DNA of 64,000 nt from a virus (taxonomy: Duplodnaviria; Heunggongvirae; Uroviricota; Caudoviricetes), in the IMG/VR virus record IMGVR_UViG_2671181136_000006; one strand, 5' to 3'. Numbering within the stretch: position 1 is the first letter of the stretch; the number at the start of each line of letters is the position of its first letter. Shown piece by piece: positions 4,848 to 59,935 of this stretch. The translations under genes and the position numbers were made by a program. Below the pieces are notes generated by a model. That model did not search any database. It saw only the letters and a list, made by a program, of their open reading frames with translations, and was not told the origin of the DNA.

Positions 4848-6533
4848 TCATTTAACGCGTTTGAAAACGTATACGCTGACTGTGATCCCTGTGTCTTCAA
4901 ACTCGTTGGTAAACGACTTCCCTCTGGCATAAACGTAATTATCCATCGTCATCCAGTCCAGTATTGGCGCAGTGCCCGGCAATACTGCTACAAGACGCCC
5001 GCCGACTTTCAGATGCCCAAGCGCAGCCAGAGTGTGCTCTCTATGACGACCAAGCGAGTACGGCGGGTTCATAACGATTTTGTCGAACTGATAACCTGCG
5101 TTGTCCTCAGACCACTTTATGAAGTCGCAGCAAATCGTGTTCGTATACCCTTTTCCACGCAGGATATCAGCGAAGAGAGGTGCGATTTCTATGCAGGTAA
5201 CATCTTCCAGATCGGCGTTAATATAGGCCAGAAGATCCCCACGTCCGGCTTGAGGCTCCAGCAGCTTCTCACCAGGCTTCAATTCAGTGGCTCTGGCAAC
5301 GTACTCAGCAATCAAGCGTGGGGTAGGGTAGAACTGGTGTGATTTTGTATCCGGTATTAATCCGGTAGCCACAATCGTATTTAGCGTATGGACGATGTCA
5401 TACGGGAACTGCCAGTGTTTTTTCTCCTGCACGCCGCCAATGAAGCTCAGTGTGCGCTCAAGCTCTTCCACCTGCGACTTCTGGAGAGCTGAATCAGAGA
5501 AGTACCATACGCCTTTGTCTTTGCTCAATCGCCCGTCACGAAGCGCAGTGCGAACCGGCACGGAGATCGTCTTCTGGATTAACCCGAACTGCTTTGGTGC
5601 CCGTGTTTTTGGCGCGGTGCGACATGGCGCGGGGATTGCAGCAGGCATACTGTAAGCCAGCACCTCATTCAACTTCCAGGCCACGTCAGGATGTATTTCA
5701 AAGTGAACGTTGCCGTTCTTGAACATCTTCACGCGCATCAGATTTCCATCGACGTTCATCCAGTCACCGGTCTGGCAGTCGTTTGCCCGATACGCAGCTG
5801 ATAGCACCTCAGCAGTGCGGTTGATGGTAATAAATTCTTTGTGCGCGAAGAAATGAAGCAAGACACGCAGATCGTCGATGTAGTCCTCTTTGCGATAGTT
5901 CACGCTAACGCTGTCCCGCCAGAAATCAGAAATGCAGTCAGCGATTATCAGCCGCTCGCTGAAACCGTTTGTCTTATTTGTCTTGTGCGCAGGACTCAGC
6001 GCCTTAAACAAGCCATACACGCGCTCAGAGAGATATTTGTGCCTGTCATTCAGCAAATTAAGCATCGTGGGTATGACCGTTTCTGCTTTGAACTCCGGTA
6101 CACCAACGAACTCTTTAACCTTCATCTGGTAGCCGGTTCTGTCAGTTTTGATGACTTCCTGTTTGCCCTCTATAAACTGCTCGCGCCACTCATCTCGACG
6201 GGAAGCTGGCATGATCAGCAAAACGTTAGTCATGTCCGTGACCTTCCTCCAGTACTCGGCCCAAATATTCTGTTTCACCCATTCCAGATCGACTTTATCC
6301 AACCAACCTCGATTTAAACGCGAGCGATCTTCATCTGGTCGATGGTTTAGTCTCAGCAGGCGATTAATCATGTTGTGGCGTTCGTCGCCATAAACGAAGT
6401 CGTGTACCTGATACATGAAGGCGATCTCTTTCTCGCACTCGGCCACGATTTCGTGGATGACATTCATTTCCTGACGATAGTCGATAGCCGTGTTTGAGCT
6501 GGCATCGTCGATGATGGAAAGGGCTGTATTCAT
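4848..6533 (-). CDS. DNA N6-adenine methyltransferase with large uncharacterised N-terminal domain
   Basis: C-terminal third carries EPQAGRGDL (AdoMet-binding-like) and NPPY catalytic motif; about 330 aa N-terminal region without recognised motif. Confidence 0.65.
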   Translation of the reverse strand: MNTALSIIDDASSNTAIDYRQEMNVIHEIVAECEKEIAFMYQVHDFVYGDERHNMINRLLRLNHRPDEDRSRLNRGWLDKVDLEWVKQNIWAEYWRKVTDMTNVLLIMPASRRDEWREQFIEGKQEVIKTDRTGYQMKVKEFVGVPEFKAETVIPTMLNLLNDRHKYLSERVYGLFKALSPAHKTNKTNGFSERLIIADCISDFWRDSVSVNYRKEDYIDDLRVLLHFFAHKEFITINRTAEVLSAAYRANDCQTGDWMNVDGNLMRVKMFKNGNVHFEIHPDVAWKLNEVLAYSMPAAIPAPCRTAPKTRAPKQFGLIQKTISVPVRTALRDGRLSKDKGVWYFSDSALQKSQVEELERTLSFIGGVQEKKHWQFPYDIVHTLNTIVATGLIPDTKSHQFYPTPRLIAEYVARATELKPGEKLLEPQAGRGDLLAYINADLEDVTCIEIAPLFADILRGKGYTNTICCDFIKWSEDNAGYQFDKIVMNPPYSLGRHREHTLAALGHLKVGGRLVAVLPGTAPILDWMTMDNYVYARGKSFTNEFEDTGITVSVYVFKRVK

Positions 6534-10487: not shown

Positions 10488-11081
10488 CTAAGCAGCCTTC
10501 TTTGATGGTCTTTTTTTCCTGATCACATTCGCAGGATCATACCCTCCCAGACTTTTCATGACGTCCAAAGGGATCTTGCTTATAGAGTGCCCAGCGTCCT
10601 GACAGAATCCTCGAAAAACAACGAGCATACTGCCACCTGGGTTGATGTTTACTTCTACCTGACCCAGATTTACGTCAGGCTCGACAAACGCTACGCGGCC
10701 ACCAGACAGAATAATCGTCTCATTCGCACACTCTGTTGCACGCTCATACCACTTTGTATCTAGGGATTGAGGAATTAGCATCACTGTTGTAACTCCGCGA
10801 GCCTGCTCACGTATAGCCGCATCAATCCAGGGGTAGATTTTGGAGTAGGGTGGATTGAGGAAGGCAATTGTACCTGGCTGTCCCCATTCAGATTTCAAAG
10901 CATCACGCTCAACGCCTATGAAATTAGGCAGCTTTGCATTGTCCTTGTTGCAGGCAACGTCAACATCAAATGTCACTCCAAGATAACGTTGAATGGCAGA
11001 AAACAGCCAGTCAGGTGTTCTCCAGAGGTCACGAAGAGAGTTGTCGCGCTTTCGCTGTTTGATTTTTTCGGCTGCAATCAT
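10488..11081 (-). CDS. dam: Dam-family phage DNA N6-adenine methyltransferase
   Basis: 197 aa; NPPY motif and overall pattern of the small phage Dam MTase family. Confidence 0.7.
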   Translation of the reverse strand: MIAAEKIKQRKRDNSLRDLWRTPDWLFSAIQRYLGVTFDVDVACNKDNAKLPNFIGVERDALKSEWGQPGTIAFLNPPYSKIYPWIDAAIREQARGVTTVMLIPQSLDTKWYERATECANETIILSGGRVAFVEPDVNLGQVEVNINPGGSMLVVFRGFCQDAGHSISKIPLDVMKSLGGYDPANVIRKKRPSKKAA

Positions 11082-14812: not shown

Positions 14813-15943
14813 TCACACCGCCACTGGAACCTTGATCCACGGTAGAGGGGCATAGCCAAGAATAAGAATCTCGTCCCATTTGAAATCATCCAGCTCAGAC
14901 CATTCATTAGGGAATATAACGACCGGATCTGAATGCTCTGGAGCCTGTCGTTGCATTAGCTCACACACACCTTCCATGTGGTTGTTGTACAAATGCACGT
15001 CAAAGCCAAAATGCACAAATGCACCGGCCATGTGACCCGTAATCTTCGCGAGAAAATGAGTGAGAATGCCATAGCCAGCAATATTGAATGGCATACCAAC
15101 AAAAGTGTCTACGCTACGCTGTACGAGGCAGGAGTTGAGGATGCGTTTGGGGATTCCAAGTTCATCCAGTTCAGCTTCAGTAACACTGCCGTCCATCTCC
15201 AGATCGTATAGCATCTTGGTGTAGATAGACTCGTAACCGAGGCGACTGTGTTGAAGACCAATGTCAGTTGCCATCGTTAAACGGGTTTCAAAATCCAGTT
15301 CACGACTCCACAAAGAGAAGACAAAGTGGCAAGGTGGCAGTTTCATATCCTCAAGCTCGCCTACGTTCCATGCGTTAAGCATGATGCGACGATCGGTAGG
15401 GTTCGTGCGCAGTGTATCGACAATACGCTGTAGCTGATCGATTTCACGGGACAGCACTACGCGATCTTCACTGATACCCAGGTATCCCTCGACTTTGTAC
15501 CCGCGTTCACGGAAAGTAGCGATCTTGCTCAGATATTCACTATGGCTCACGATGCGGGTATCTTCCCATCGACGCCACTGCTTACCGTAAACCGGCCCCA
15601 AATCGCCATTCTCATCGGCCCATGCATCCCAAATCTTAACGCCGTTATCCTTGAGAAATTGGATGTTGCCCGTGCCTTTCAGATACCACTCAAGTTCGAC
15701 AAGCAGTGGCTTAAGATTTACCGCCTTTCCAGAAATAAGCGGCACAGTCCCACCAGTAAGCATGTAGTAAGAGGGAACGTAACAGGTGCTTAAAGTACCA
15801 GTGCCTGTGCGATCATCAGCCTGCACGCCGCTTTTAAGCACCGTCTCAATAACTTTTGCATACGATGCGTTTGTTACCTGACCGTTCGTATGCTCACGAT
15901 TCAAAAGGAGTGACACAAAAACCTCACAAAGATAAGTAACCAC
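14813..15943 (-). CDS. thyA: thymidylate synthase (ThyA type) with two insertions
   Basis: DRTGTGTLS, GPVYGKQWR, MKLPPCH (catalytic Cys), GMPFNIAGY, HLYNNH motifs; GTG start in track, true start uncertain. Confidence 0.9.
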   Translation of the reverse strand: MVTYLCEVFVSLLLNREHTNGQVTNASYAKVIETVLKSGVQADDRTGTGTLSTCYVPSYYMLTGGTVPLISGKAVNLKPLLVELEWYLKGTGNIQFLKDNGVKIWDAWADENGDLGPVYGKQWRRWEDTRIVSHSEYLSKIATFRERGYKVEGYLGISEDRVVLSREIDQLQRIVDTLRTNPTDRRIMLNAWNVGELEDMKLPPCHFVFSLWSRELDFETRLTMATDIGLQHSRLGYESIYTKMLYDLEMDGSVTEAELDELGIPKRILNSCLVQRSVDTFVGMPFNIAGYGILTHFLAKITGHMAGAFVHFGFDVHLYNNHMEGVCELMQRQAPEHSDPVVIFPNEWSELDDFKWDEILILGYAPLPWIKVPVAV

Positions 15944-15993
15944 TTATTCATTGCGTGAGTTTACATTTATTGAGAGAACAAGACCAGACAGAT

Positions 15994-25216: not shown

Positions 25217-25470
25217 GTGTTTTTCCTTTGTGGTTATTTTGATACAAATTTTAAGAGCAATGAGAAGGTAAACAACTATGCATAACGGTATGTTAGGAAT
25301 GAAACGAGCGTCTTAATATACAAAATTTATAAGTAAGTATATACCTATTTATTGTGGCGCAACTTTGCTTGTCTGTATGACTAAAAATAAGACAGGATCA
25401 CTGTAGAACGCTATGAGAGCTATTTTGAGGAGGCGTAGATTCTATCTACGCCAATATACGATCTGGAGGG

Positions 25471-26115
25471 TTACAGCGCGTCAGTGGGCTTTTTACGCGC
25501 TGCGTTTATGCTTATGACGCCAGCTTTTGGACGTGGGTCAACAAGGTTAAGCTCTTCTTCGCTGTGGTATTCGAGGTCGAACTCACGTTTTACATGTCTG
25601 ATGTAGATTGCGGTGAGCAGGCTATCTTTGGTCAGAAAGTGTCCGTAGGATTTGCGGATCACTTCTTCTACCTTCTCGATTTTCTCACCACCCATACAGA
25701 GATGATTAAACCGGCTGTGTTTCCGCAACATTTCGTCTACTGGGCCTGAGTAAACCTTGTCTACTTTCCCAAAACGGATGATTTTCCCTGTGTCTGCGGA
25801 TACGAGGCAAATCAGCTTGTCTGGTGATAAACGATCTCGCCACGTCACACCTGAACGGAGTGTGTTGAAGTAGGGAGCATCCAATCCGATGATCGGTTTA
25901 CGAAATGCGAGTAATGGAACGTACCTGATGCAACTGTTTAAATGAAAATTCACACCAGCCTTATCAAGTTTAATTCTGGTTTCGTAGATCGGGCACTTCG
26001 CCGCTATACCGCAGATGTCACAAAGCAACTTCTGCTTATTCAGGTTGGAATTTGATTCGATAGTGTAGGAGCCGTCTTCAAGACGACGAACCCAGCGCGT
26101 GCGTTTTAGATCCAT
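25471..26115 (-). CDS. hypothetical protein
   Basis: 214-aa ORF. Confidence 0.4.
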   Translation of the reverse strand: MDLKRTRWVRRLEDGSYTIESNSNLNKQKLLCDICGIAAKCPIYETRIKLDKAGVNFHLNSCIRYVPLLAFRKPIIGLDAPYFNTLRSGVTWRDRLSPDKLICLVSADTGKIIRFGKVDKVYSGPVDEMLRKHSRFNHLCMGGEKIEKVEEVIRKSYGHFLTKDSLLTAIYIRHVKREFDLEYHSEEELNLVDPRPKAGVISINAARKKPTDAL

Positions 26116-26199
26116 ATGTCATTTTTCTGTGATTGTTAGCCGAGGCAACGATAACCCACCAGGTGCGCCGAAGGTAGTAAATGCCTGTTTTAATTATTC

Positions 26200-26300
26200 A
26201 CATATCCACAGGATAGATCCTAATAAAGAGATCCATAGATAGATCCTTGTATAGATCAAATAAGATCCCCGATCGCTGTAAGCCGCGCCACGACTGGTCT
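26200..26300. promoter_or_regulatory. origin-like region: DnaA-box-like ATATCCACA plus six GATC sites in about 60 bp
   Basis: ATATCCACA at 26203-26210 (8/9 to TTATCCACA); GATC at 26216, 26230, 26242, 26254, 26264, 26271; directly upstream of iterons. Confidence 0.55.
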
Positions 26301-26315
26301 GAAGCCATGTTCATG

Positions 26316-26416
26316 TATGCTGTCAGCGGTAATTGATAGTCTGTCAGCGGTTCACCGTATGCTGCCAACTGTTTTTGGTATTCTGTCAGCGGCAAATCAA
26401 GTATGCTGTCAGCGGT
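26316..26416 (+). repeat. upstream iteron cluster (about 5 copies of TATGCTGTCAGCGGT and variants)
   Basis: copies at 26316, about 26337, about 26358 (partial), about 26389, 26402. Confidence 0.8.
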
Positions 26417-26436
26417 TGAATGACAAAGGTGTCCAC

Positions 26437-27531
26437 ATGTCCACAAAAAATAAAAAAGGTAAAAATAACAAAGAAGTAGAAGATAATCTCGACAACTTTG
26501 AAGAAGGTTCCCTTGAATTGTACACAGGGGAACTTGTCCCTAATAGCAACAATACAGTCCAACCAATTGCGTTGATGCGGCTGGGATTGTTCGTGCCCAC
26601 GCTCAAGGGGACAAAATACAGCAAGCGTAACAAGCCAAATGAGATCGATGCTTCAAAGGAGCTTGTTCAGCTCGAAGTAGCCCGTTCTGAAGGCTATTCC
26701 GATATCAAGATAACCGGTCCTCGTCTCGACATGGATCATGATTTCAAAACGTGGGTGGGCGTTGTGCGTTCGCTGGCAGAATACGGCGAACCTAACGGTC
26801 GTGTCGAGTTAAGCATCACGAAATTTGCGAAGTTTTGTGGCTATCCATCGTCACAGATCCGCAAAACACTCCGCGACCGGCTTACAAACAGTCTTTTGAA
26901 GATCATGCGTACAACTCTGTCTTTCCAGAGAACGTATGAAGAAAAGAACGTCGACGGCTCTAACAAGATCTCGCTTCTGATGGTGCACCTCATCAATAGC
27001 GTGGACTACAACGAGCAGAAAGATACGGTGGTGTTCTATGCAGAACCGAAGCTGGCCGAACTATATCGCTTTGACCATAAGGTTCTTTTGCAGTTAAAGG
27101 TTATCAATAAGCTACCACGCAAAGAAACAGCACAGGCTCTGTACACCTTCATCGAAAGTCTTCCAACCAAGCCTGCGCCGGTATCGCTTGCTCGATTGCG
27201 TGCGCGACTCAATTTGAGTAGCAGGAATGTCAGCTCGCAGAATCAGACTATACGCAACGGCTTAAAAGCTCTCCAAGATTTGGGCTATCTCGAATACAGC
27301 GAGATTAAGCGTGGGCGGTCGATCTATATCCAGATTCACAGCCGCAATCCAAAACTCAAAGTCGCACCGCCAAAACCTGAAGACATCGAACCCAAAAAAC
27401 TAGATGAGAAAGCTGGGGAAATTGATGCCAAACAGAACATTATCAACAAGATAACCGAACTTTCGCAGAATTTGACGCCTGAAAATATCAAGATGATTGA
27501 GATCCTTTCCAATAGTCTCAAACTGCTTTGA
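26437..27531 (+). CDS. repA: iteron-binding replication initiator (RepA/RepE-like)
   Basis: basic N-terminus, winged-helix-like pattern, flanked on both sides by 15-bp iterons; start set to ATG 26437 because the longer ORF runs through the iterons. Confidence 0.75.
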   Translation: MSTKNKKGKNNKEVEDNLDNFEEGSLELYTGELVPNSNNTVQPIALMRLGLFVPTLKGTKYSKRNKPNEIDASKELVQLEVARSEGYSDIKITGPRLDMDHDFKTWVGVVRSLAEYGEPNGRVELSITKFAKFCGYPSSQIRKTLRDRLTNSLLKIMRTTLSFQRTYEEKNVDGSNKISLLMVHLINSVDYNEQKDTVVFYAEPKLAELYRFDHKVLLQLKVINKLPRKETAQALYTFIESLPTKPAPVSLARLRARLNLSSRNVSSQNQTIRNGLKALQDLGYLEYSEIKRGRSIYIQIHSRNPKLKVAPPKPEDIEPKKLDEKAGEIDAKQNIINKITELSQNLTPENIKMIEILSNSLKLL

Positions 27532-28062
27532 TATGCTGTCAGCGGTGAAATGTATGCTATCAGCGGCTATTTTTCTGAAAAGTATGCTGTGAACGGTTAA
27601 AGATATGCTACCAGCGGTATAGTGAGATGAACGTATGCTGTGAGCGGTAAATCATCTATCACCACTCAATGCTCTGTCATACCTCCCCAGTGGTTACTAA
27701 CCTCGAAGAGTGCATTCCATATAGGTTTGCGCTCACTAACATTCTATTGCTATTGCGCTGATTGCTTGTAGTGAAAGGCATTTATTGCCTGCTACTCCCT
27801 GATAGAACGTATGCTGTCAGCGGTGTGTTATTGAGGAATTTTTGTTTGGATATGCTATCAGCGGTAATTAATGGTATATGTCAGACATTCGTATGCTGCC
27901 AGCGGTAATTTTGTTCTGGTTATACCCATACCGGGACACATTATTCATGCAATTTCTTAAGTATGCTGTCAGCGGTAAAAAATCGAGTAAAGTATGCTGT
28001 GAGCGGTGAGATAGACTCTCGATATGCTATCAGCGGTAGTTGATTGTGTATGCTGTCAGCGG
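27532..28062 (+). repeat. downstream iteron clusters (about 12 copies, two groups)
   Basis: TATGCT(G/A)(T/C)(C/G)A(G/A)CGGT at 27532, 27553, 27583, 27604, 27634, 27810, 27851, 27892, 27962, 27992, 28023, 28048; followed by GACTGCGGAACGTGCCGCAGTC hairpin. Confidence 0.8.
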
Positions 28063-28110
28063 TGACGACTATGAAATATGACTGCGGAACGTGCCGCAGT
28101 CAGTTTGCAT

Positions 28111-28323
28111 TTAGTGTATTTTCTTTAACAGACCCCAAAGTGTTCCGGCTTTTGTAGTCAGTTTTCCTGTTTCTGGATCGTACATACGCCATTCACGCCG
28201 CTGGTGGACGATATACCCATCTTCACGTTCCAGACGCTCAAGAATGCCAGGCTGCTTGAAACCCTTAGCACGCCAGTAGCCGCTTGTTTTCTCGATTTCC
28301 AGACCTGCCAGTGTTAATGCCAT
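28111..28323 (-). CDS. hypothetical protein
   Basis: 70-aa ORF. Confidence 0.3.
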   Translation of the reverse strand: MALTLAGLEIEKTSGYWRAKGFKQPGILERLEREDGYIVHQRREWRMYDPETGKLTTKAGTLWGLLKKIH

Positions 28324-28658
28324 TACCCAACCTCCTTGCAGTCATCGAAAAGGTAGCTTTGCTGAGAAGCGTGAACGCCATAGAAGCCCTTGTATTTGTT
28401 GTATACGAAGTGGTCTTCTCCGACGCCGGTTAATTTGCCATTACGATTTGTGAGATATGGGGATGACAACACTCGATCGTCACGCACAACATAGAACTGG
28501 TCGCCGCTGTCTACGACCATCGCTCCATATGGTGCTTTTATGACGTCGGTAAGAGTGCCATTCTTAACGTCGGCTACAGACATTTCACACTGATAAACAG
28601 TGGTGTCGGCCACAACGATCGAAGAAAGAAACAACAGCGCGAATGGGATGGTCTTCAT
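28323..28658 (-). CDS. secreted hypothetical protein
   Basis: N-terminal signal peptide MKTIPFALLFLSSIVVA. Confidence 0.45.
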   Translation of the reverse strand: MKTIPFALLFLSSIVVADTTVYQCEMSVADVKNGTLTDVIKAPYGAMVVDSGDQFYVVRDDRVLSSPYLTNRNGKLTGVGEDHFVYNKYKGFYGVHASQQSYLFDDCKEVG

Positions 28659-28834
28659 GCTGCCACCTCTTTGATTACATCAAATGCTGAATTAAATACG
28701 AGCACGATAGCCAAAGCGTTTATGACTACGTCGTGCACCGGGGAAAAGACTTTACGAATGACACCAGTGAAAATGCAGTCGATGACAAAAGCTATTGAAA
28801 CGATGAGTAACAAGTATTCAATAAAAATCTTCAT
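28655..28834 (-). CDS. small membrane protein (not in ORF track)
   Basis: 59-codon ORF, two hydrophobic segments, stop overlaps next start (ATGA). Confidence 0.3.
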   Translation of the reverse strand: MKIFIEYLLLIVSIAFVIDCIFTGVIRKVFSPVHDVVINALAIVLVFNSAFDVIKEVAA

Positions 28835-28873
28835 GATAGGTAGATACTAACTTATATAAACTTTACTGTAAAC

Positions 28874-29149
28874 TCACTCAAAAGTGCTGATGCTTAAAAT
28901 ACGCTCAAGATGTTCAGCATCTTCATTACTGATTTGTTGAGTCTCTTCTACGTACCAACAGTTGCCGTTATGCCAACAAACACCATCATCATCAACCATC
29001 ACTGAATCAGCGTCATGACCTGTATATTCAACAAGAGTACGCTGGATCAGCGCGTCAGTTTCTTCATCGTTAAGGCCATCGACTTTGACCATAAAAAGCG
29101 GAAACACGTCATAGACAGTGCTGGTAACGATTCGAACTAAAACTCTCAT
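28874..29149 (-). CDS. hypothetical protein
   Basis: 91-aa ORF. Confidence 0.35.
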   Translation of the reverse strand: MRVLVRIVTSTVYDVFPLFMVKVDGLNDEETDALIQRTLVEYTGHDADSVMVDDDGVCWHNGNCWYVEETQQISNEDAEHLERILSISTFE

Positions 29150-40684: not shown

Positions 40685-41920
40685 TTAACCAAATATTTTT
40701 TGAACAACTTCACGAGCCGCTTGTGCAGAAGCTGAAGGGAGTTTGTTAATGAAAGAACGCTCAATACCTGTCACAAAGTCGCCTCGCATCATTCCAATCT
40801 TGGCCGACAACAAAAGTTCACGAGGGCCAATTGGCTGACTAATGAGGTGTTCTTCGTATCCATCGCGAACGATACCGGCAAACTTAACCATCTTTTCAGC
40901 GTATTCATCCACGATGCCTGCATTTGTCAGCATGTTGATCTCTGCGTCTTTGCTCATGTATTTCACATTCGAAACGATGCCAAAACGCGAAAAGTTCGCG
41001 GCGTTCTGGATGTTTGTACCCTGGTACAAGCCGGTTTCATCACCAGATCCGTTCGTGTTGCCAGTGCCAATGAAAGCAAACCGTTCATGCGGAGTAATGC
41101 GACGCCATTCTGGAGTTGCCTCTTTGATGACCAACGCTTCACCTTCCAGCACTGGCTGATACACGCCAAGAATTTGTGGAAACGCAAAGTCGTATTCATC
41201 CGCGAGGTAAACCCAGCCATGCTTCATTGCGAGCGCAAGCAAGCCAGGTTCGAAATACGTAGAGCCATCACGCGCCAGAATTTGCCCCGTAACATGTGCC
41301 TCTTCCATTGATGCTGTATGTTGGGCACGGATCAACGGACGATTGAGCAAAGCACATAGCTGTGTAGGCAATGACGATTTGCCTGTTCCTGCATGACCCC
41401 ACAAATAGCCAGGTATGCCAAGTTCAAGCATCATGAAAATATCTTTGATCAGTTCGAAGTCGCCATATACGTAGCCTTTCTTCACTTCGGGAACGAACTC
41501 TGGATACGGCGTATTGACGTTGACGCTAACCATGAGCGGCGTCCCACGTTTTGTTCCGAGTTCTTCCACCGTTACGTTTAGCAGTTCGTGAGCTGCGACC
41601 AGATCTGTCTTGTACTCAACTGTGCCTGTGTAGCCAGGGCTACTGGTCAAGCCAGAAGATTTGGCCATTTCGCTTTTTTGCTCGGCACGTTTAGCTTGAA
41701 TTGCATCAAGTGCCTTTTTCGATAGCGTTGGTTCATCTGGAAACTGCGTTGTGTACATTTTCAGTACGGTGTCAGGATCGGCATCTTTTACTGACTCAGG
41801 AATGCCCTCGCAATTACCATTGGCTACATGGGACTTAAAATAGTGAAATGATTTGCCGCACCACTTGCAAACAAGGTAATCAGAAGGATTTTTTTCATTT
41901 TGCAGTGCAGTAGTCGTCAT
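40685..41920 (-). CDS. CobS-like AAA+ ATPase (MoxR family)
   Basis: Walker A GHAGTGKSS, N-terminal Cys cluster; paired with downstream vWA protein. Confidence 0.65.
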   Translation of the reverse strand: MTTTALQNEKNPSDYLVCKWCGKSFHYFKSHVANGNCEGIPESVKDADPDTVLKMYTTQFPDEPTLSKKALDAIQAKRAEQKSEMAKSSGLTSSPGYTGTVEYKTDLVAAHELLNVTVEELGTKRGTPLMVSVNVNTPYPEFVPEVKKGYVYGDFELIKDIFMMLELGIPGYLWGHAGTGKSSLPTQLCALLNRPLIRAQHTASMEEAHVTGQILARDGSTYFEPGLLALAMKHGWVYLADEYDFAFPQILGVYQPVLEGEALVIKEATPEWRRITPHERFAFIGTGNTNGSGDETGLYQGTNIQNAANFSRFGIVSNVKYMSKDAEINMLTNAGIVDEYAEKMVKFAGIVRDGYEEHLISQPIGPRELLLSAKIGMMRGDFVTGIERSFINKLPSASAQAAREVVQKIFG

Positions 41921-42015
41921 GCGTTTTTCCTTTGTTCTCTAATGAGCGTTCAACTTCTTATATAAATATATCATCATCTATCGTAAGTGGTTACTTATCA
42001 TTAAGGCTGTTTTGT

Positions 42016-44124
42016 TCACTTTAAAATGATACGAGATAGTTCAGTAACTACAGATGAACCAAGACTATCAACGCTCGTTACCAGGGCATGATTTGAGTAA
42101 AATCTCTCCGGTGCGTCAGTCATGATGCCAATTGCCATCAAATCAATATCAGTCTGCGTTTCAATTTGCTTCGCAACTGAACGCAAATGAGCGTCAAAAC
42201 CTCTCCCAACAGCCCACGGCGCGCCATCACTCAGAACAAGCATGATCTTCCTGTCCTCCAAGCGACCGGAAAATAACGATGCAAGGCTGGCTATGCTTTC
42301 ACCATCCACGTTATTAAGAAGTGGGAATGTGTAGCCTACGCACCCCATACGTGAGCGAACTTCGCGAGAATTTACCTTTTCATTCCAATTTTTGATGATA
42401 GGTAGCATTAAAGATTCAAAGCGAGAGAACTCATACTTGACAGCCTTAAGTTCTCCTGCCGCCATATGACTACCAAATGTAGTGAAGCCGGTGATAATGT
42501 TGGGAACATTTATTCGATCAAGGGCATCGGCGATGGTATATGCACTTGCAAGAGCCAATTGTATCGTTATACCACTCATTGAACCTGATAAATCAATCAC
42601 TTGTTGAACACAGGCGTTAACGGCTTTAGATTCTTCTTTTTTACGAAACACGCGAGCATCATTCATTGCTAATCTGTAGATACTAGAACCATGAATGCGC
42701 CCCCGACGCTGGCCCGGTATAAACTGAACTCTGTTTCTGCTTGCTATTGCTCGCTCCAGGTCTTTTGCCAGCGTCGACGAAACACCTGACGAAAGATGCT
42801 TTTCAATATATTTGTCGAAGAGCTGGTTGCCTTCAGGAACGATGCGATAGCGGCTGATTGGATATCCTCCCAAATCAATATCGGAGAATGTTTTAATAAG
42901 CCGTTTGATATGGGCTTCTGCCTGATCAATCGAGCCGATGAAGTCGTATGAGCGATTGTATGGCCTGTATTCGCTTTTCGAGCTTTCTGTTAACTCGCTT
43001 TTAATCGTTTCGGATAGCGCATCTTCTGTCATGCCTCCGACTTCATCTTCCATGCTATCCAACTCCTCTAAAGCCTCTTCCAGACTCATTTTTGACGGAG
43101 TTGGGATATCTGAAGAGCCGTCTTCTGTCGTTTTTCTTTTTTCGTGGTCAGCGGTTAATGATTCTGACGCCGCGTTATCAGAAGCATCAGAATCTGATAC
43201 CTCTTTATCATTTTCTGTATCATCGAATATTGTTTCTGATGATTCAGAATTATCTGAATCATCACTGTCGTTATTATCATGTTTGTGCTTACTGTGTGAT
43301 TCTGATTTGATAGATTTGTGATTATCTAACACTGAGGGTGTCTCATGATCTTCGTTGTCTTCACTGTTTTCTCCAGAGGCATCCGTCTGGTCAGCGTCTG
43401 AAGGATCGGAAGTTTTTCCCGGAGCTGACTCCTTACCTTTGCTTTCACTTTCAGTGTCTTTGAGGATCTTAGCTATGGTCGCAGCCACCTTTACACAATC
43501 CTCGGTGCAAGACATGTTACGCACGGCCACATCGATACCATGTTCTTTTAATAATGAAATTGGTTTCTCAATGACAGGCCAATATTCATCCATGAAATCT
43601 ACGAACGGTGCTTGGCCATCCCAGGCTCTTACAACCGGACAGAGAAAGAAGTTTAGAAAAAGCGCGCGCTGATCTTTGCCACAATAAGCAATAGCCTCTG
43701 AAGCCTTTGGTTTAAAGACTTTTTCGATTATAAGGCGCTGAGTTGCCATCAGATTACGTCTTGTTCCGTTAAAGACCTGACCCATTTTTCGCTCGATGAA
43801 CACGTCTTCTAAGGCATTCCATAGCGACCAGGAAGGAACGCGTCCTTTTTCTCTCATTTTGTTGGACACACGAATATCGGTAAACAAAATGTGAGCAACC
43901 TCATGATCGAGAAATCCGCGCACAGCATTCATCAATGCCGGTGTTGCGTTATCCGGGATTGATGGGATGTTTACGAGAATTGGCTCTCCATCATCGTTAT
44001 AGCGAACATAAGCGTCGTCCCCTCGTTCTGCAACAGGGATGTTTTTACCTGAAAGGAGAGCGACTACTCGTTTTACACTGTCACGGAAGTCCTGAACCTC
44101 TTTGATGGAACGTTTTTTAGACAT
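42016..44124 (-). CDS. CobT-like protein with acidic low-complexity region and C-terminal vWA domain
   Basis: D/E/S-rich stretch (about aa 230-340), vWA MIDAS-like DLSGSMSG. Confidence 0.6.
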   Translation of the reverse strand: MSKKRSIKEVQDFRDSVKRVVALLSGKNIPVAERGDDAYVRYNDDGEPILVNIPSIPDNATPALMNAVRGFLDHEVAHILFTDIRVSNKMREKGRVPSWSLWNALEDVFIERKMGQVFNGTRRNLMATQRLIIEKVFKPKASEAIAYCGKDQRALFLNFFLCPVVRAWDGQAPFVDFMDEYWPVIEKPISLLKEHGIDVAVRNMSCTEDCVKVAATIAKILKDTESESKGKESAPGKTSDPSDADQTDASGENSEDNEDHETPSVLDNHKSIKSESHSKHKHDNNDSDDSDNSESSETIFDDTENDKEVSDSDASDNAASESLTADHEKRKTTEDGSSDIPTPSKMSLEEALEELDSMEDEVGGMTEDALSETIKSELTESSKSEYRPYNRSYDFIGSIDQAEAHIKRLIKTFSDIDLGGYPISRYRIVPEGNQLFDKYIEKHLSSGVSSTLAKDLERAIASRNRVQFIPGQRRGRIHGSSIYRLAMNDARVFRKKEESKAVNACVQQVIDLSGSMSGITIQLALASAYTIADALDRINVPNIITGFTTFGSHMAAGELKAVKYEFSRFESLMLPIIKNWNEKVNSREVRSRMGCVGYTFPLLNNVDGESIASLASLFSGRLEDRKIMLVLSDGAPWAVGRGFDAHLRSVAKQIETQTDIDLMAIGIMTDAPERFYSNHALVTSVDSLGSSVVTELSRIILK

Positions 44125-44686: not shown

Positions 44687-45073
44687 ATGTCTGACAACAA
44701 GATTGAATTTATAGAAAGTCGCTATGCTGCTTTTATCGCAGGGCTGATTGAATCCTCACCTATGAGTCAGGCCCAAATAGCCAGACTTATTGGTTATAAA
44801 AATGCCAACAACCTTTCTTTAATTAAAAGTGGCAAAATTCCTTTGCCTATCGATAAGGTTCGTCCGTTGGCGCTGGCGCTGGGTATTGAGCCAAGTCGTC
44901 TTATGATGATGGTGCTGGAAGAACGCCAACCTGAACTCGCAGCATTTTTATACAAAGAAGGCACCGCTCCTCTTAACGAGGACGAAAAACAGGTTCTTGC
45001 TGCATATAACGAGCGATTCGGTAAAGAGAAAGGCGCATCACAAAAGGTTGTTGAGGCTATAAAGTCTCTATGA
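44687..45073 (+). CDS. HTH DNA-binding protein (XRE-like), candidate repressor
   Basis: SQAQIARLIGYKNANNLSLIKSG helix-turn-helix pattern; start set to MSDNK (ORF track starts 44657). Confidence 0.5.
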   Translation: MSDNKIEFIESRYAAFIAGLIESSPMSQAQIARLIGYKNANNLSLIKSGKIPLPIDKVRPLALALGIEPSRLMMMVLEERQPELAAFLYKEGTAPLNEDEKQVLAAYNERFGKEKGASQKVVEAIKSL

Positions 45074-46171
45074 AAAATTTACACGAATAAGCTCTGTTGA
45101 TAGACGATCTCCCTTGAATTTGTGGTCAATTTCGTCTAAATCCGGTTGCTCTACGATTGATGCGATGTACGTCGAGAAACTTTCTAAGGCGTCTCGCATC
45201 TCGTCCATATAATCGTGCCGGTCGTAGACTCGATCTATCCCCTCAAGACTGTGGTTCATGATTTTGCGTGATACCTCCTGGCTTATGCCTAATGCTGGGA
45301 AGTAACTACGCGCAGTACGGCGCAAGTCTCGGGGTGTAAATGGCTCAAGCTCCATCAGTTCTGGTCGTTCCAGAATACGACGTAATGCCTGGGCTATTGC
45401 CACTTTAGACATAGGAAGGTCTTTCCCGATTTTTTTATTCGAAGGCACGAGCCACTGGCTGCCTTTACCGTATTCGAACAACTCTTCAATACATGTGCGC
45501 ATTAATGTGCTTAAAGGCAGCGAATGCTCACGGGCAGATTTGTTCCTCTTGCCTTGATTCCAAACCCCACGCTTAAGATTGAACTCACTTTTTTTAGCCC
45601 GCAGTACTTCGTCAGGTCGTCTTGCGGATACAAGACACAGCCTGGCCGCCCATTTTGTACCAGCGCACACATTGAAGTAGTCCCATATATTCCAGAACAC
45701 CCATACCTCTGCGTCGGTCAGCTTCCGCTCGCGAGGTGTGGGCTTTGCGCCACCGGCAACTTTGTTTAGTGACATATCGTTTAACGGTGACACGTCTATC
45801 ATCCCCTGGAAGGCGCACCAGCTAAGGAACTGCTTCATCAGAGAGAAAACGCGGCGGCCCATAACAATTTTGCCATCCAGTATTAGTGGGTTGACCAGTT
45901 GGTTCACCATGAACCTATTAATGTCACTTACTTTTACATCGGCAATGTGCGGCAAAACATGTATCAAAATACAATGAACAGCGATCTCTGGCCGACGTCT
46001 GGTTATCAGCAGAGATAAGCGAGTGAATAACATGAATGCGTCCGAGAATCTCATGTCATTGCTGACCTGGGAGATCATAACGGCCTGCATTTGAGATGCT
46101 CTTTCGAGATACTCAATCGCCTCTTTTGAGGTGTTCTCCGCAGCGCGTGCTCTGTCAAAGCTATTTTTCAT
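45068..46171 (-). CDS. tyrosine site-specific recombinase (integrase/resolvase family)
   Basis: C-terminal catalytic pattern R...H..R...Y (RDLRRTARS; HSLEGIDRVYDRHDY). Confidence 0.8.
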   Translation of the reverse strand: MKNSFDRARAAENTSKEAIEYLERASQMQAVMISQVSNDMRFSDAFMLFTRLSLLITRRRPEIAVHCILIHVLPHIADVKVSDINRFMVNQLVNPLILDGKIVMGRRVFSLMKQFLSWCAFQGMIDVSPLNDMSLNKVAGGAKPTPRERKLTDAEVWVFWNIWDYFNVCAGTKWAARLCLVSARRPDEVLRAKKSEFNLKRGVWNQGKRNKSAREHSLPLSTLMRTCIEELFEYGKGSQWLVPSNKKIGKDLPMSKVAIAQALRRILERPELMELEPFTPRDLRRTARSYFPALGISQEVSRKIMNHSLEGIDRVYDRHDYMDEMRDALESFSTYIASIVEQPDLDEIDHKFKGDRLSTELIRVNFS

Positions 46172-48519: not shown

Positions 48520-48523
48520 AATT

Positions 48524-48610: not shown

Positions 48611-48615
48611 TAAAT

Positions 48616-57790: not shown

Positions 57791-58150
57791 TCAACCTTTC
57801 TTCATTAACTCGCGTTTAATTTCATCGGTACGCATCGTGACATCGGCAGCGGTGATCGCCTCATTCAATTTCACGATGTCCTCGATTTCCTGCGGTGACT
57901 TCTCTGCCAGATGGAAAATGGCTGCTCGAATCACGTCAGAACGAGTGAACTTCTCGAAGCGAGGGATGAACTTCATCATCTCCAGCAGTTCGAAGTATTC
58001 GTCCTCCAGTGACATTGTGCGGCTTTTAATTTTCTCTTTGCCACGAGTCGGGCGTCCCTGTGGTCTGACTGGTTGGCGCAAAGGAGTTGTGTTCTTAGCC
58101 GGTGCATCAGGCTCTTTGCGCTTTGCTAGGTCACCCATTTTCATGGACAT
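57791..58150 (-). CDS. small basic DNA-binding partition protein (ParG/RHH-like), candidate centromere-binding protein
   Basis: 119 aa, basic disordered N-terminus, directly downstream of and overlapping parA stop. Confidence 0.45.
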   Translation of the reverse strand: MSMKMGDLAKRKEPDAPAKNTTPLRQPVRPQGRPTRGKEKIKSRTMSLEDEYFELLEMMKFIPRFEKFTRSDVIRAAIFHLAEKSPQEIEDIVKLNEAITAADVTMRTDEIKRELMKKG

Positions 58151-58818
58151 TATTCTTCTTCCTCCAGACTCAACAGATAATCTACAAATTCTTCAAACTC
58201 GGCTTCCGCCTTTTTGTCGCGCTCGCTACCGGTCATTTCAAAGATAGAACGACCAGACTCTTCCGCATCATCATAGACGTTGCGGTTATATAGATTGACT
58301 GGCGCAGACTCGATTCCAAACGTCTCAACAATCTCTTTAGCCGCCAGAATGCGAGACACTTGTGATGGCAAAGCCGGGCACTGGTTCATGACCGCGCGGA
58401 CCTTCACTTTATCGTTTACATTGCGAACATTGTCGATAATAGGATCGATGTCACGTAAAGATTTCAAATCACGACGCTTAGGACGCAGCGGGATAATGAT
58501 AACGTCAGCCATCAGCATCGCTTGTCGCTGAATTTCGGAGTCGAAGCCACCAGCATCTACCACTACAAACTCAGCTCTACCCTGAAGCGATTTTAGGTGC
58601 TTAATGATGTCATCCTGAACGTATGCAAAAGGAATCAGCTCAAGGTCTTCGTTCTGTCGACGGTCTTCACACCAGCTCGTTGTCGTGCGCTGAATATCTA
58701 TATCGGTAATATAAACCTTCTTCTTCTTTTTGACTTTCAGGCAAACGGCAATTTGCTGGGCAACGGTGGATTTGCCAGGCCCGCCCTTTGTGCCGCCAAC
58801 CACAAAGATCTTGGTCAT
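58150..58818 (-). CDS. parA: ParA/Soj-family partition ATPase (small type Ib)
   Basis: deviant Walker A GGTKGGPGKST, 222 aa. Confidence 0.85.
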   Translation of the reverse strand: MTKIFVVGGTKGGPGKSTVAQQIAVCLKVKKKKKVYITDIDIQRTTTSWCEDRRQNEDLELIPFAYVQDDIIKHLKSLQGRAEFVVVDAGGFDSEIQRQAMLMADVIIIPLRPKRRDLKSLRDIDPIIDNVRNVNDKVKVRAVMNQCPALPSQVSRILAAKEIVETFGIESAPVNLYNRNVYDDAEESGRSIFEMTGSERDKKAEAEFEEFVDYLLSLEEEE

Positions 58819-59136
58819 TGGAGAGTTCCCTTTGCGTATATAATTATCGTCTGAAACAACTTGTTTTCTTATATGTGATATAGCCTAAATGCCTACGGCT
58901 GCGGTGTAAAGGTTAAATGGTAGGTTGTGATTAACAATTGGCAAACATAGCTTGTATTTGTCTGTTGAAAAAAGTAACAATGACCTCTATATTACAAGTA
59001 CGGTGATATGCCGTACACAATTTGATAATGCACACGTAATGGGCTATAGCCTTTTAAAGTAATTTTTGAGTCGAAAACTCAGTTTGAACAGAGGAGATTG
59101 ATGGCCTTCCTACATCACGGCCATCAGGAGGAATAC

Positions 59137-59406
59137 ATGTCAGCACTAAAAAAGCAGCGCATCGATTTGAGATTAACCGATGACGATAAAAGCATCATCG
59201 AGGAAGCTGCCGCAATGTCTAACCAGAGCATTACTCAGTTTATGGTTAGCAGTGCATCTGAACGTGCCGTGAAAGTTATAGAGCAACACCGTAGACTAGT
59301 TCTGAATGAAGAATCCTGGAATCTGGTTATGGACGCTATAAGCAATCCTCCGGCACCGAACGACAAGCTGAAACGAGCTGCTGATCGTCTGAAAAGCATG
59401 GAGTAG
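59137..59406 (+). CDS. ataR: RHH antitoxin of GNAT-toxin TA pair (AtaR/TacA-like, DUF1778)
   Basis: MSALKKQRIDLRLTDDDKSIIEEAA... closely resembles AtaR as recalled; AGGAGG SD 7 nt upstream of ATG 59137. Confidence 0.85.
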   Translation: MSALKKQRIDLRLTDDDKSIIEEAAAMSNQSITQFMVSSASERAVKVIEQHRRLVLNEESWNLVMDAISNPPAPNDKLKRAADRLKSME

Positions 59407-59413
59407 TTTACTC

Positions 59414-59935
59414 GTGGATAATATAAAGATAGAAATTTTCTCTGGAGAGAAAGATTATGATTTGAATGGTTTTGATTGCGGTGAAGAATCACTAAATGCC
59501 TTTTTAACCAACCACTTAAAAAGGCAGCATGAGGGAAAAATTCTTCGCGCTTATGTGCTTTGCACGAAAGAAGGCAGACCAAAAGTGTTAGGGTATTACA
59601 CTTTGTCAGGTAGCTGCTTTGAAAAGGAGTCCTTACCTTCAAGAAGCCAGCAAAAGAAGGTACCTTATCGGAATGTTCCAAGTGTTACTTTGGGTAGGCT
59701 GGCTTTGGACAAGTCCCTTCAAGGTCAAGGATTTGGCTCAATGCTTGTAACACATGCAATGCGCGTTGTGTACAATGCATCTCTTGCTGTAGGCATTCAT
59801 GGACTTTTCGTTGAGGCGTTAAATGACAAAGCCAAGGCGTTTTATAAAAGTTTAGACTTTATCCAGCTGGTTGGTAACAACGAGCGTTCTTTGTTCTATC
59901 CTACAAAATCTATCGAAAAATTGTTCGAAGAATAA
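59414..59935 (+). CDS. ataT: GNAT acetyltransferase toxin (AtaT/TacT-like)
   Basis: FDCGEE..N.FL..H, LGYYTL.GSCFE, SVTLGRLA.D.SLQGQG, GIHGLFVEALN.KA..FYKSL.F motifs near-collinear with AtaT as recalled; GTG start 8 bp after antitoxin stop. Confidence 0.9.
   Translation: MDNIKIEIFSGEKDYDLNGFDCGEESLNAFLTNHLKRQHEGKILRAYVLCTKEGRPKVLGYYTLSGSCFEKESLPSRSQQKKVPYRNVPSVTLGRLALDKSLQGQGFGSMLVTHAMRVVYNASLAVGIHGLFVEALNDKAKAFYKSLDFIQLVGNNERSLFYPTKSIEKLFEE

What the first reader, a model, noticed from the sequence alone, without database searches (positions are those of the whole stretch)
26200..28105. P1-like plasmid replicon inside a phage genome: DnaA box, GATC cluster, iterons, rep, second iteron array
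A 15-bp iteron (TATGCTGTCAGCGGT and variants) is repeated about 5 times upstream and about 12 times downstream of a RepA-like gene. Upstream of the first array sit an ATATCCACA DnaA-box-like sequence and six GATC sites within 60 bp. This matches the origin and copy-control layout of iteron plasmids and of the P1 plasmid prophage. Together with ParA, its partner and the toxin-antitoxin pair, it indicates the lysogenic state is an extrachromosomal low-copy plasmid. The GATC cluster may link origin function to host Dam or to one of the two encoded adenine methyltransferases.
Basis: partly seen in the sequence, partly recalled or inferred. Interest (0 to 1): 0.6.

Follow-up and report, generated by a model that had tools for sequence, protein, structure and literature searches.

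The report
P1-type plasmid replicon of a phage-plasmid
This stretch is the plasmid-maintenance replication origin of an SSU5-family phage-plasmid of E. coli, built almost part for part like the well-studied phage P1 plasmid origin, so it is real and correctly read but ordinary.

Summary
The region holds two tandem DnaA-box-like 9-mers (26194-26210) and six GATC sites in 59 bp (26216-26274), the only such cluster in the 64 kb. A GC-rich spacer follows, then five direct iterons 21-23 bp apart (26316-26416). Next come a 364-aa rep gene (26437-27531) and twelve more direct iterons (27532-28063), starting right after the stop codon.

Rep is 46% identical to P1 RepA over nearly its full length. The non-coding origin core aligns base by base with annotated P1 oriR (about 76% identity), more conserved than the rep gene (58%).

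The window is a pECOH89/p09EL50-type member of the SSU5 phage-plasmid group. The same replicon occurs in 120 of 5,426 complete E. coli genomes, always on plasmids and never on a chromosome. ParA with a small partner gene, a TacA/GNAT toxin-antitoxin pair and a Dam-family methyltransferase are also present.

Differences from P1 are minor:
- twelve control iterons, all direct (P1 has nine, three direct and six inverted);
- a 161-bp iteron-free insert in the control array;
- a 55-aa C-terminal tail on Rep;
- par genes about 30 kb away rather than adjacent.

Function is inferred; nothing was tested experimentally. Low novelty.

The parts
26194..26210 (+). Two tandem DnaA-box-like 9-mers (TTATTCACA, ATATCCACA) at the left edge of the origin
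   Evidence: one mismatch each to TTATCCACA. They align with the annotated 18-bp DnaA binding site of P1 oriR. They are conserved in 7 of 8 aligned origins.
26211..26275 (.). AT-rich (63% A+T) GATC-repeat region: five (A)GATC(C/A) units plus CGATCG, 7-14 bp apart. Presumed unwinding, Dam and SeqA target region.
   Evidence: It is collinear with P1 Dam methylation sites 1-5. Five to seven GATC are kept in all eight aligned origins.
26276..26315 (.). G+C-rich spacer (57% G+C) containing GCCGCGCCACG (26282-26292), which is identical in P1
26316..26416 (+). Origin iteron array (incC-like): five direct copies of TATGCTGTCAGCGGT, start-to-start 21/21/21/23 bp
   Evidence: P1 incC iterons have 21/21/21/22 bp spacing.
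26375..26404 (+). Candidate rep promoter, TTGGTA-18 nt-AAGTAT, overlapping iterons 4-5 (inferred, weak consensus)
   Evidence: Read from the sequence. It sits at the position of the annotated P1 PrepA (TTGCTA-18-TAGGAT) in iterons 12-10. It was not picked up by the consensus scan.
26429..26445 (+). Two weak DnaA-box-like motifs (GTGTCCACA, ATGTCCACA) at the right edge, overlapping the rep start
   Evidence: The Klebsiella relative has GTATCCACA here, one mismatch from the consensus. P1 has CTATCCACA between incC and repA. The function is inferred.
26437..27531 (+). rep gene, 364 aa: a P1 RepA-family iteron-binding initiator. It has about 30 extra N-terminal and 55 extra C-terminal residues relative to P1 RepA.
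   Evidence: PF01051 Rep3_N, 37.5 bits; phrog_775, E 4.6e-133.
27532..27648 (+). Control array, cluster A (incA-like): five direct iterons starting at the base after the stop codon, spacing 21/30/21/30
   Evidence: P1 incA begins at the last base of repA.
27649..27809 (.). 161-bp iteron-free insert in the control array. It holds the conserved element CCCAGTGGTTACTAACCT (27686-27703) ... AGGTTTGCGCTCACTAAC (27723-27740).
   Evidence: homologous pieces in the Klebsiella relative and in SSU5. Function unknown.
27810..28063 (+). Control array, cluster B: seven direct iterons, spacing 41/41/70/31/30/26
   Evidence: The copy number varies among near-identical elements: 9 downstream iterons in phage PhiR41_1 and 13 in p4_0.2.
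28079..28102 (.). G+C-rich hairpin (9 bp stem). A terminator-like site on both strands, between the replicon and the convergent leftward genes.
   Evidence: (I1).
57791..58818 (-). Context, not part of the replicon: ParA-type Walker ATPase (58150-58818) and a 119-aa partner ORF (57791-58150)
   Evidence: MipZ, AAA_31, CbiA and ParA Pfam families; phrog_164 ParA-like; phrog_5111.
59098..59935 (+). Context: TacA-like antitoxin (59098-59406) and GNAT acetyltransferase toxin (59414-59935)
   Evidence: PF08681 TacA1, E 8.6e-26; GNAT domains.
10488..11081 (-). Context: Dam-family N6-adenine DNA methyltransferase, a possible methylase of the origin GATCs
   Evidence: PF05869, E 2.9e-38. Its sequence specificity was not determined.

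Best explanation
This is the plasmid-maintenance (theta) replicon of an SSU5-family phage-plasmid, and it is a true homologue of the P1 oriR/RepA/incA replicon (the RepFIB family).

Proposed mechanism, by analogy with P1:
1. Rep monomers bind the five phased origin iterons.
2. Host DnaA binds the tandem boxes at the left edge, and possibly the weak boxes at the right edge.
3. Together they open the adjacent AT-rich GATC-repeat region, so that the host helicase and replisome can load.
4. The GATC sites must be methylated for firing. When hemimethylated just after replication they are sequestered by SeqA, which blocks immediate re-initiation.
5. Rep bound to iterons 4-5 represses its own promoter.
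6. The twelve downstream iterons hold copy number low, by titrating Rep and by Rep-mediated pairing ('handcuffing') with origin iterons.

What is shown here: the sequence anatomy, the homology of Rep and of the origin core to P1, and the exclusively plasmid location.

What is inferred: every binding event, the methylation dependence, the autorepression and the copy-control role.
For: - Rep is 46% identical to P1 RepA over nearly its full length (E 4e-86). It is 52-53% identical to the SSU5 and Pantoea plasmid Reps. It has a Pfam Rep3_N WH1 domain.
- The origin core is 75.7% identical to P1 oriR over 115 aligned columns, against 58% for the rep genes.
- The eight-way alignment of origin cores has 75% mean column identity, although the iterons belong to at least five different sequence types.
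- The layout matches the curated P1 features one for one: DnaA site, Dam sites 1-5, incC with five iterons, repA, then incA beginning at the stop codon.
- The iterons are far above chance, and so is the GATC cluster.
- The origin core is found in 1,780 plasmids. Among those fetched, the Klebsiella pneumoniae, Yersinia pestis pMT and 322-kb Salmonella plasmids are typed IncFIB.
- The same replicon is in 120 of 5,426 complete E. coli genomes: 185 places on plasmids, 0 on chromosomes.
- It is the only replicon type listed for the two such plasmids whose typing was retrieved (rep_cluster_488).
- A 64-kb IS-bearing Escherichia albertii plasmid, little over half the usual size, keeps the replicon.
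- pECOH89 was isolated as a plasmid (PMC3999498).
- A related phage-plasmid, Cyrano, was estimated at about 3 copies per chromosome (bioRxiv 10.1101/2022.10.28.514194).
Against: - Nothing was tested experimentally.
- No consensus sigma-70 promoter was found on the + strand upstream of rep, so autorepression rests only on positional analogy.
- All twelve control iterons are direct, whereas P1 incA has three direct and six inverted. A 161-bp non-iteron insert also splits the array. The geometry of any handcuffing may therefore differ from P1.
- One-mismatch DnaA boxes are individually at chance frequency in the window.
- Sequence searches against solved structures found no relative. The single-sequence structure model was unusable (pLDDT 38). 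The winged-helix fold therefore rests on the Pfam match alone.
Confidence: 0.9

Rival explanations
1. The region is the lytic (vegetative) replication origin of the phage rather than the prophage-maintenance origin.
For: The window carries a full set of phage replication genes: DnaE, primase, a DnaB-like helicase, ligase, RNase H and NrdAB. These need an origin somewhere, and none has been identified.
Against: - The homology is to the P1 plasmid origin oriR and to RepA.
- The origin core is shared with large non-phage plasmids. One is a conjugative Pantoea plasmid with parAB next to it.
- A shortened, IS-bearing plasmid derivative keeps the replicon.
- A downstream iteron array of this kind is a copy-limiting device, which would be pointless for lytic amplification.
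Confidence: 0.03
2. The upstream part is a P1-type origin, but the downstream array is not, or not only, a copy-control locus. It could be a second origin, a Rep reservoir needed for initiation, or a site where another protein acts through the embedded AGTGGTTACT element.
For: - The array is longer than in P1, has a different orientation, and is split by a 161-bp insert.
- The core of that insert is conserved in Klebsiella and SSU5 relatives, although the SSU5 iterons are different.
- The 10-mer AGTGGTTACT recurs in two intergenic sites elsewhere in the window.
Against: - The position, starting at the rep stop codon, is the same as P1 incA.
- No GATC cluster or DnaA box accompanies the array.
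- Natural variants with 9, 12 and 13 copies exist among deposited phage and plasmid records, which fits a dispensable tuning element.
- The second arm of the embedded element is degenerate in this window.
Confidence: 0.06
3. The replicon is an inactive relic, and the element is maintained by another, unrecognised origin.
For: Only 64 kb of a genome of about 110 kb was examined. Function was not tested.
Against: - The rep ORF is intact.
- The region is 97-100% conserved, iteron by iteron, in about 120 plasmids.
- It is the only replicon type listed for the two records whose typing was retrieved.
- The GATC and DnaA motifs are conserved across distant relatives.
Confidence: 0.01

Closest known systems
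Phage P1 plasmid replicon (oriR with incC, repA, incA)
   Same: - The order and the sequence of the origin core are the same: tandem DnaA boxes, GATC repeats, the GCCGCGCCACG spacer, then five iterons at 21-bp phasing.
- RepA is homologous (46% identity).
- The control array begins at the stop codon.
- The host element is a phage that lysogenises as a low-copy plasmid and has its own adenine methyltransferase.

   Different: - The iteron sequence differs: TATGCTGTCAGCGGT here, TGTGTGCTGGAGGG in P1.
- There are six intact GATC here and five in P1.
- There are 12 control iterons, all direct and split 5+7 by a 161-bp insert. P1 has 9, three direct and six inverted.
- Rep is 78 aa longer.
- No parAB or parS follows the array. 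Partition is by a small ParA-type ATPase about 30 kb away.
- The virion genes belong to the SSU5 group, not to P1.
Klebsiella pKPHS1-group phage-plasmids ('IncpKPHS1'; e.g. p1_020037)
   Same: The iteron sequence is the same and Rep is 86% identical. There are five origin iterons with identical spacing, the same flanking genes, and downstream iterons all direct.
   Different: There are nine downstream iterons (4+5), and the AGTGGT(C/T)ACTAAC element lies after the array instead of inside it. The paper that defined the group reported only four iterons downstream of repA and no known domain in RepA (PMC6735626).
SSU5 / pHCM2 / pMT1 / pLF82 (Cyrano) RepA replicons
   Same: The phage-plasmid family and the genomic position are the same, between the 214-aa phrog_2105 gene and the 70-aa phrog_804 gene. 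The origin core is homologous (69-70% identity) and Rep is 52% identical.
   Different: The iterons are different ((A/T)ACCACTGTAGAGAG) and have mixed orientation downstream. SSU5 carries a tandem duplicate of the core-plus-iteron module. The two types are therefore probably compatible with each other.
RepFIB replicons of IncF plasmids (P307 / pColV-K30 REPI)
   Same: From established knowledge, RepFIB has a repA flanked by upstream and downstream iterons and shows sensitivity to Dam methylation. Relatives of this origin core are typed IncFIB by MOB-suite. The RepA variant of some P1-like phages that is 41% identical to this Rep is annotated 'RepFIB replication protein A'.
   Different: The RepFIB prototype was not fetched or aligned here, so the degree of identity is unknown. 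This element itself is typed rep_cluster_488, not IncFIB.

Membership tests
P1 oriR/RepA-type (RepFIB-family) iteron replicon | Initiator homologous to P1 RepA | tested here: met
   BLASTP gives 46% identity, E 4e-86, covering residues 20-284 of the 286-aa P1 RepA. tblastn finds P1, P7 and SSU5 RepA.
P1 oriR/RepA-type (RepFIB-family) iteron replicon | Initiator of the Rep_3 / winged-helix (RepE, pi) class | tested here: inconclusive
   Pfam PF01051 Rep3_N (WH1) scores 37.5 bits against a cut-off of 22.4. There was no sequence match to solved structures, even with a 6-sequence profile. The single-sequence AlphaFold model was too poor to use (pLDDT 38).
P1 oriR/RepA-type (RepFIB-family) iteron replicon | Tandem DnaA boxes at the outer edge of the origin | tested here: met
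   TTATTCACA and ATATCCACA at 26194-26210 align with the annotated DnaA site of P1. Binding was not tested.
P1 oriR/RepA-type (RepFIB-family) iteron replicon | AT-rich block of GATC-containing short repeats next to the DnaA boxes | tested here: met
   Six GATC in 59 bp, 63% A+T. They are collinear with P1 Dam sites 1-5.
P1 oriR/RepA-type (RepFIB-family) iteron replicon | G+C-rich spacer, then five direct iterons phased at two helical turns | tested here: met
   GCCGCGCCACG is identical to P1. Iteron spacing is 21/21/21/23 here and 21/21/21/22 in P1.
P1 oriR/RepA-type (RepFIB-family) iteron replicon | rep promoter embedded in the origin iterons (autorepression) | tested here: inconclusive
   The consensus scan finds no + strand promoter. 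Only a weak TTGGTA-18-AAGTAT lies at the position of P1 PrepA.
P1 oriR/RepA-type (RepFIB-family) iteron replicon | Second iteron array immediately downstream of rep (incA-type control locus) | tested here: met
   Twelve iterons run from the base after the stop codon. P1 incA starts at the last base of repA. Orientation and number differ.
P1 oriR/RepA-type (RepFIB-family) iteron replicon | Autonomous replication dependent on Rep, DnaA, adenine methylation and DnaK/DnaJ chaperones, with incompatibility exerted by the iteron arrays | not testable with these tools
   This needs cloning and host-mutant tests. The only indirect support is the exclusively plasmid location.
P1 maintenance region as a whole | parA-parB-parS operon directly downstream of incA | tested here: not met
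   Downstream of the array are convergent small genes of unknown function. The ParA-type ATPase (222 aa) lies at 58150-58818.
SSU5 supercommunity of phage-plasmids | Synteny and high identity with known members, and circular plasmids of about 100-115 kb carrying phage genes | tested here: met
   - 99.5% identity to the 110-kb plasmid NZ_CP027358, 99.1% to p09EL50 (NC_018651) and 98.6% to phage PhiR41_1.
- The genes flanking rep are the same as in SSU5.
- The family is described in PMC7969092 and PMC3999498.

The most novel reading that the evidence does not exclude
The iteron-free insert in the copy-control array carries a binding site (AGTGGTTACT) for a phage-encoded regulator. The core of the insert is conserved in relatives with different iterons, and the 10-mer recurs inside an identical 16-mer, TAAGTGGTTACTTATC, in two other intergenic regions of the window. 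On this reading, plasmid copy control is wired to the phage's lysogeny or lytic programme rather than being a purely P1-style autonomous circuit.
Probability: 0.07. Interest if true: 0.5.

Novelty: already known. Interest (0 to 1): 0.12.

Why it matters
It matters little for discovery. The kind of replicon is a textbook case. This replicon is already present in about 2% of complete E. coli genomes, its RepA is mentioned in the literature, and plasmid-typing tools give it a replicon cluster.

The practical value is in annotation:
- The origin, the iterons and the correct rep start can now be marked for the pECOH89/p09EL50 and pKPHS1 groups, which include carriers of CTX-M beta-lactamases.
- Published descriptions of the Klebsiella sister group missed the P1 homology and most of the iterons.
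- The replicon is probably compatible with SSU5/pLF82-type and P1-type elements, because the iterons differ.

A modest evolutionary point also emerges. The host-factor part of the origin (DnaA boxes, GATC repeats, spacer) is more conserved than the initiator gene, across 1,780 plasmids with many iteron specificities.

Tried and rejected
- Rfam scan of 25400-28900 at E up to 1 gave no RNA family, so no antisense-RNA control element is recognised.
- NCBIfam had no family for Rep.
- phmmer and a 6-sequence profile against PDB sequences gave no credible hit; the best was a glyoxalase at E about 1.
- Single-sequence AlphaFold2 of Rep gave pLDDT 38 and pTM 0.26, so it was not used for fold search. 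I ran no further search on a better alignment, because the P1 RepA homology already settles the family.
- The promoter scan found no + strand sigma-70 site upstream of rep.
- Iteron-like sequences elsewhere in the window (5931 and 48466, three mismatches each) are at chance level.
- The composition and skew profile around the origin shows nothing beyond the local AT-rich and GC-rich blocks.
- The idea that the AGTGGTTACTAACCT element is a repeated centromere-like site in this window was not supported. Only four loose matches were found, and 4 of 100 shuffles do as well. The exact 10-mer does recur three times.
- Several papers could not be opened: the P1 genome paper, Abeles and Austin 1987, and a 2026 preprint on phage-plasmid heteroresistance.
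Full report
**1. What is in the sequence**

The region was read directly and scanned for repeats. The 15-mer TATGCTGTCAGCGGT, allowing three mismatches, occurs 19 times in the 64-kb window against 1.4 expected, and no shuffle reached 19. Seventeen copies lie in this region, all on the + strand.

- Five copies are upstream of the rep ORF, at 26316, 26337, 26358, 26379 and 26402. Their start-to-start spacing is 21, 21, 21 and 23 bp.
- Twelve copies are downstream. Five lie at 27532-27648 and seven at 27810-28063, separated by a 161-bp stretch without iterons.
- The first downstream copy starts at the base after the TGA stop codon.

Left of the upstream array lie, in order:

- two adjacent DnaA-box-like 9-mers, TTATTCACA at 26194 and ATATCCACA at 26202;
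- six GATC sites between 26216 and 26274;
- a G+C-rich spacer.

The GATC cluster is the only place in the window with four or more GATC in 60 bp. With the 270 sites placed at random, a maximum of six or more was seen in 20 of 20,000 trials. GATC is not enriched in the window overall (270 found, 261 expected). One-mismatch DnaA boxes are likewise at chance frequency overall, so they count only because of where they lie.

**2. The gene**

The mechanical ORF runs from 26317 to 27531 (404 aa), and this is how PGAP annotates it in relatives. Its first 40 codons are the translated iterons.

The ATG at 26437 is preceded by AAGGTG. It is the start used in the PhiR41_1 record. It also matches the N-termini of the homologues in the alignment. 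I therefore take Rep to be 364 aa.

- It has the Pfam Rep3_N (WH1) domain at 37.5 bits, cut-off 22.4.
- It belongs to phrog_775 (E 4.6e-133).
- It is 46% identical to P1 RepA over residues 32-309, which covers 20-284 of the 286-aa P1 protein (E 4e-86).
- It is 52% identical to SSU5 RepA and 53% to the Rep of a conjugative Pantoea plasmid.
- It is 86% identical to the Rep of Klebsiella pKPHS1-type phage-plasmids.
- Relative to P1 RepA it has about 30 extra N-terminal residues and a 55-residue C-terminal tail. The tail is present but poorly conserved in the other long homologues.

**3. The origin is homologous to P1 oriR, not merely similar in plan**

The curated P1 record (AF234172) annotates the following features:

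- an 18-bp DnaA site and Dam methylation sites 1-5;
- five incC iterons, with the repA promoter inside them;
- repA;
- nine incA iterons beginning at the last base of repA.

The window sequence aligns with this base by base. The alignment runs TTAT(T/C)CACA-(T)TATCCAC, GGATAGATCC, the successive AGATCC units, GATCCC(C/T)GATCG, then GCCGCGCCACG.

Identity is 75.7% over 115 aligned columns. The rep genes are only 58% identical at the nucleotide level.

An eight-way alignment has 75% mean column identity and keeps five to seven GATC in every member. It includes this window, the Klebsiella relative, P1, a Pantoea plasmid, a Cronobacter phage-plasmid, SSU5, Yersinia pestis pMT and a 322-kb Salmonella plasmid. 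The iterons that follow this core belong to at least five unrelated sequence types.

A blastn search with the 136-bp core alone finds 1,780 plasmid records. Among those fetched, the Klebsiella, Y. pestis and 322-kb Salmonella plasmids are typed IncFIB.

**4. What the element is**

The 2-kb region is 99.5% identical to a 110-kb circular E. coli plasmid and 99.1% identical to p09EL50 of E. coli O104:H4. It is 98.6% identical to Escherichia phage PhiR41_1, whose record lists MG1655 as host.

The flanking genes are those of Salmonella phage SSU5. The window also carries DnaE, primase, a DnaB-like helicase, ligase, RNase H, NrdAB, ThyA and other typical SSU5-group genes.

The family is described as the SSU5 supercommunity of phage-plasmids (PMC7969092). 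The pECOH89 paper states that its RepA is identical to that of p09EL50 and 48% identical to that of pLF82 (PMC3999498). That is the same figure I obtain against Cyrano (pLF82) and SSU5.

In 5,426 complete E. coli genomes the replicon is found in 120. All 185 places are on plasmids and none is on a chromosome. Among the matching records are shorter plasmids of 62-76 kb that keep the replicon. The one whose annotation was retrieved, a 64-kb Escherichia albertii plasmid, carries IS elements close to it.

- a ParA-type ATPase and a small partner ORF (57791-58818);
- a TacA/GNAT toxin-antitoxin pair (59098-59935);
- a Dam-family methyltransferase (10488-11081);
- a second ORF (4848-6533) that matches a PHROG named 'DNA methyltransferase'.

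**5. How it most likely works**

By homology with P1, Rep monomers would occupy the five phased iterons and DnaA the tandem boxes. There may also be a contribution from the weak GTGTCCACA and ATGTCCACA motifs at 26429-26445. The Klebsiella relative has a near-consensus GTATCCACA at that spot, and P1 has CTATCCACA in the equivalent place.

The AT-rich GATC block would melt and the host replisome would load. [quoted passage not shown] From established knowledge, SeqA binds the hemimethylated P1 origin core.

The conservation of the GATCs across all relatives argues that the same control applies here. The enzyme could be host Dam or the element's own Dam-family protein; which one cannot be decided from sequence.

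The downstream array would limit copy number by titration and handcuffing. A related phage-plasmid, Cyrano, was estimated at about three copies.

All of these steps are inferred. Only the anatomy, the homology and the plasmid location are shown.

**6. Differences from P1**

- There are twelve control iterons, all direct. P1 has nine, three direct and six inverted. Other relatives show every mixture of orientations.
- The array is interrupted by 161 bp (see section 8).
- Iteron number is polymorphic among nearly identical elements. PhiR41_1 has lost three by an 87-bp deletion between repeats, leaving nine. Plasmid p4_0.2 has gained one 26-bp unit, giving 13. The records examined across about 120 plasmids have twelve.
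- Partition genes are not adjacent to the array.
- No convincing sigma-70 promoter is detected upstream of rep. The best candidate, TTGGTA-18-AAGTAT at 26375-26404, sits where P1 PrepA sits relative to the iterons.

**7. Novelty**

The replicon kind is a classic. This replicon is common in databases, is assigned a replicon cluster by plasmid-typing tools and is mentioned in the literature. The SSU5 group is a standard example of phage-plasmids.

I found no paper that sets out the origin anatomy of this branch. The paper defining the Klebsiella sister group reports only four iterons downstream of repA and no known domain in RepA (PMC6735626). The Klebsiella relative examined here, a different plasmid from those in that paper, has five upstream and nine downstream iterons. 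This is an annotation improvement, not a discovery.

**8. Loose end**

The 161-bp insert contains CCCAGTGGTTACTAACCT ... AGGTTTGCGCTCACTAAC. It is homologous to a better-preserved pair of AGTGGT(C/T)ACT repeats in the Klebsiella relative and in SSU5. In Klebsiella the pair lies after the array; in SSU5 it lies inside it.

The exact 10-mer AGTGGTTACT occurs only three times in the window. The other two are inside an identical 16-mer, TAAGTGGTTACTTATC, in two intergenic regions at 15931-15946(-) and 41984-41999(+). This could be a regulator binding site, or it could be chance plus a decaying relic. I did not pursue it further.

Noticed in passing
window 27686-27740; L007:4296-4360; L004:4148-4205: The iteron-free insert in the control array holds a pair of AGTGGT(C/T)ACTAAC-like repeats. 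They are conserved in the Klebsiella and SSU5 relatives, although the SSU5 iterons are different. The second repeat is degenerate in this window. In Klebsiella the element lies after the array, not inside it.
   Followed up: partly
window 15931-15946 (-) and 41984-41999 (+): An identical 16-mer, TAAGTGGTTACTTATC, occurs in two intergenic regions. One is just upstream of the thyA-like gene and after a terminator. The other is between ORFs 40685-41920 and 42016-44124. It shares the 10-mer AGTGGTTACT with the element in the control array, giving three exact copies in 64 kb where about 0.25 is expected. It may be a regulator binding site.
   Followed up: partly
window 27962-28063; L002 (PhiR41_1); L012 (p4_0.2): The downstream iteron count is polymorphic among elements that are more than 98% identical. 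PhiR41_1 has 9 (an 87-bp deletion between repeats), the other plasmids examined have 12, and p4_0.2 has 13 (an extra 26-bp unit). These are natural material for testing copy-number control.
   Followed up: partly
L004:2260-2500 and L004:2640-2900 (SSU5); the first module also in L008 (Y. pestis pMT): SSU5 carries two tandem copies of the origin-core-plus-iteron module upstream of repA. In the copy nearer repA most GATCs have decayed (GAACCA, GACCCA). The Y. pestis pMT sequence examined shows the intact first module.
   Followed up: no
window 26317-26436: The PGAP annotation of relatives starts Rep at the ATG inside iteron 1 (404 aa). The first 40 codons are translated iterons. The likely true start is ATG 26437 (364 aa), as in the PhiR41_1 record.
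   Followed up: yes
window 25471-26115 (-): A 214-aa cysteine-containing protein of unknown function (phrog_2105, no Pfam match) is transcribed away from the origin. It keeps this position, with an identical length of 645 bp, in SSU5, Y. pestis pMT, Klebsiella and Cronobacter relatives. It is absent next to the P1 and Pantoea origins.
   Followed up: partly
window 59098-59935 (+): A TacA-like antitoxin and a GNAT acetyltransferase toxin (TacT/KacT type) lie directly beside the ParA gene.
   Followed up: yes
window 60980-62557 (-): A 525-aa PAS-HAMP-MCP (aerotaxis-receptor-like) gene is carried by the phage-plasmid. It is probably an accessory host-benefit gene ('moron').
   Followed up: no
window 47993-48690 (-): A cluster of four tRNA genes (Ser-tga, Thr-tgt, Tyr-gta, Asn-gtt). 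The pECOH89 paper reported only two tRNAs (Thr and Asn) for its plasmid.
   Followed up: no
L013 (E. albertii p2014C-4015-1, 63.8 kb): This 64-kb Escherichia albertii plasmid keeps the identical replicon and neighbouring genes and has IS911- and IS110-family elements nearby. The search listings show other matching plasmids of 62-76 kb. They look like decayed phage-plasmids that survive as plain plasmids.
   Followed up: partly
window 45068-46171 (-): A tyrosine recombinase (Phage_integrase domain) in an element that is never found integrated. It is possibly a Cre-like dimer-resolution function.
   Followed up: no
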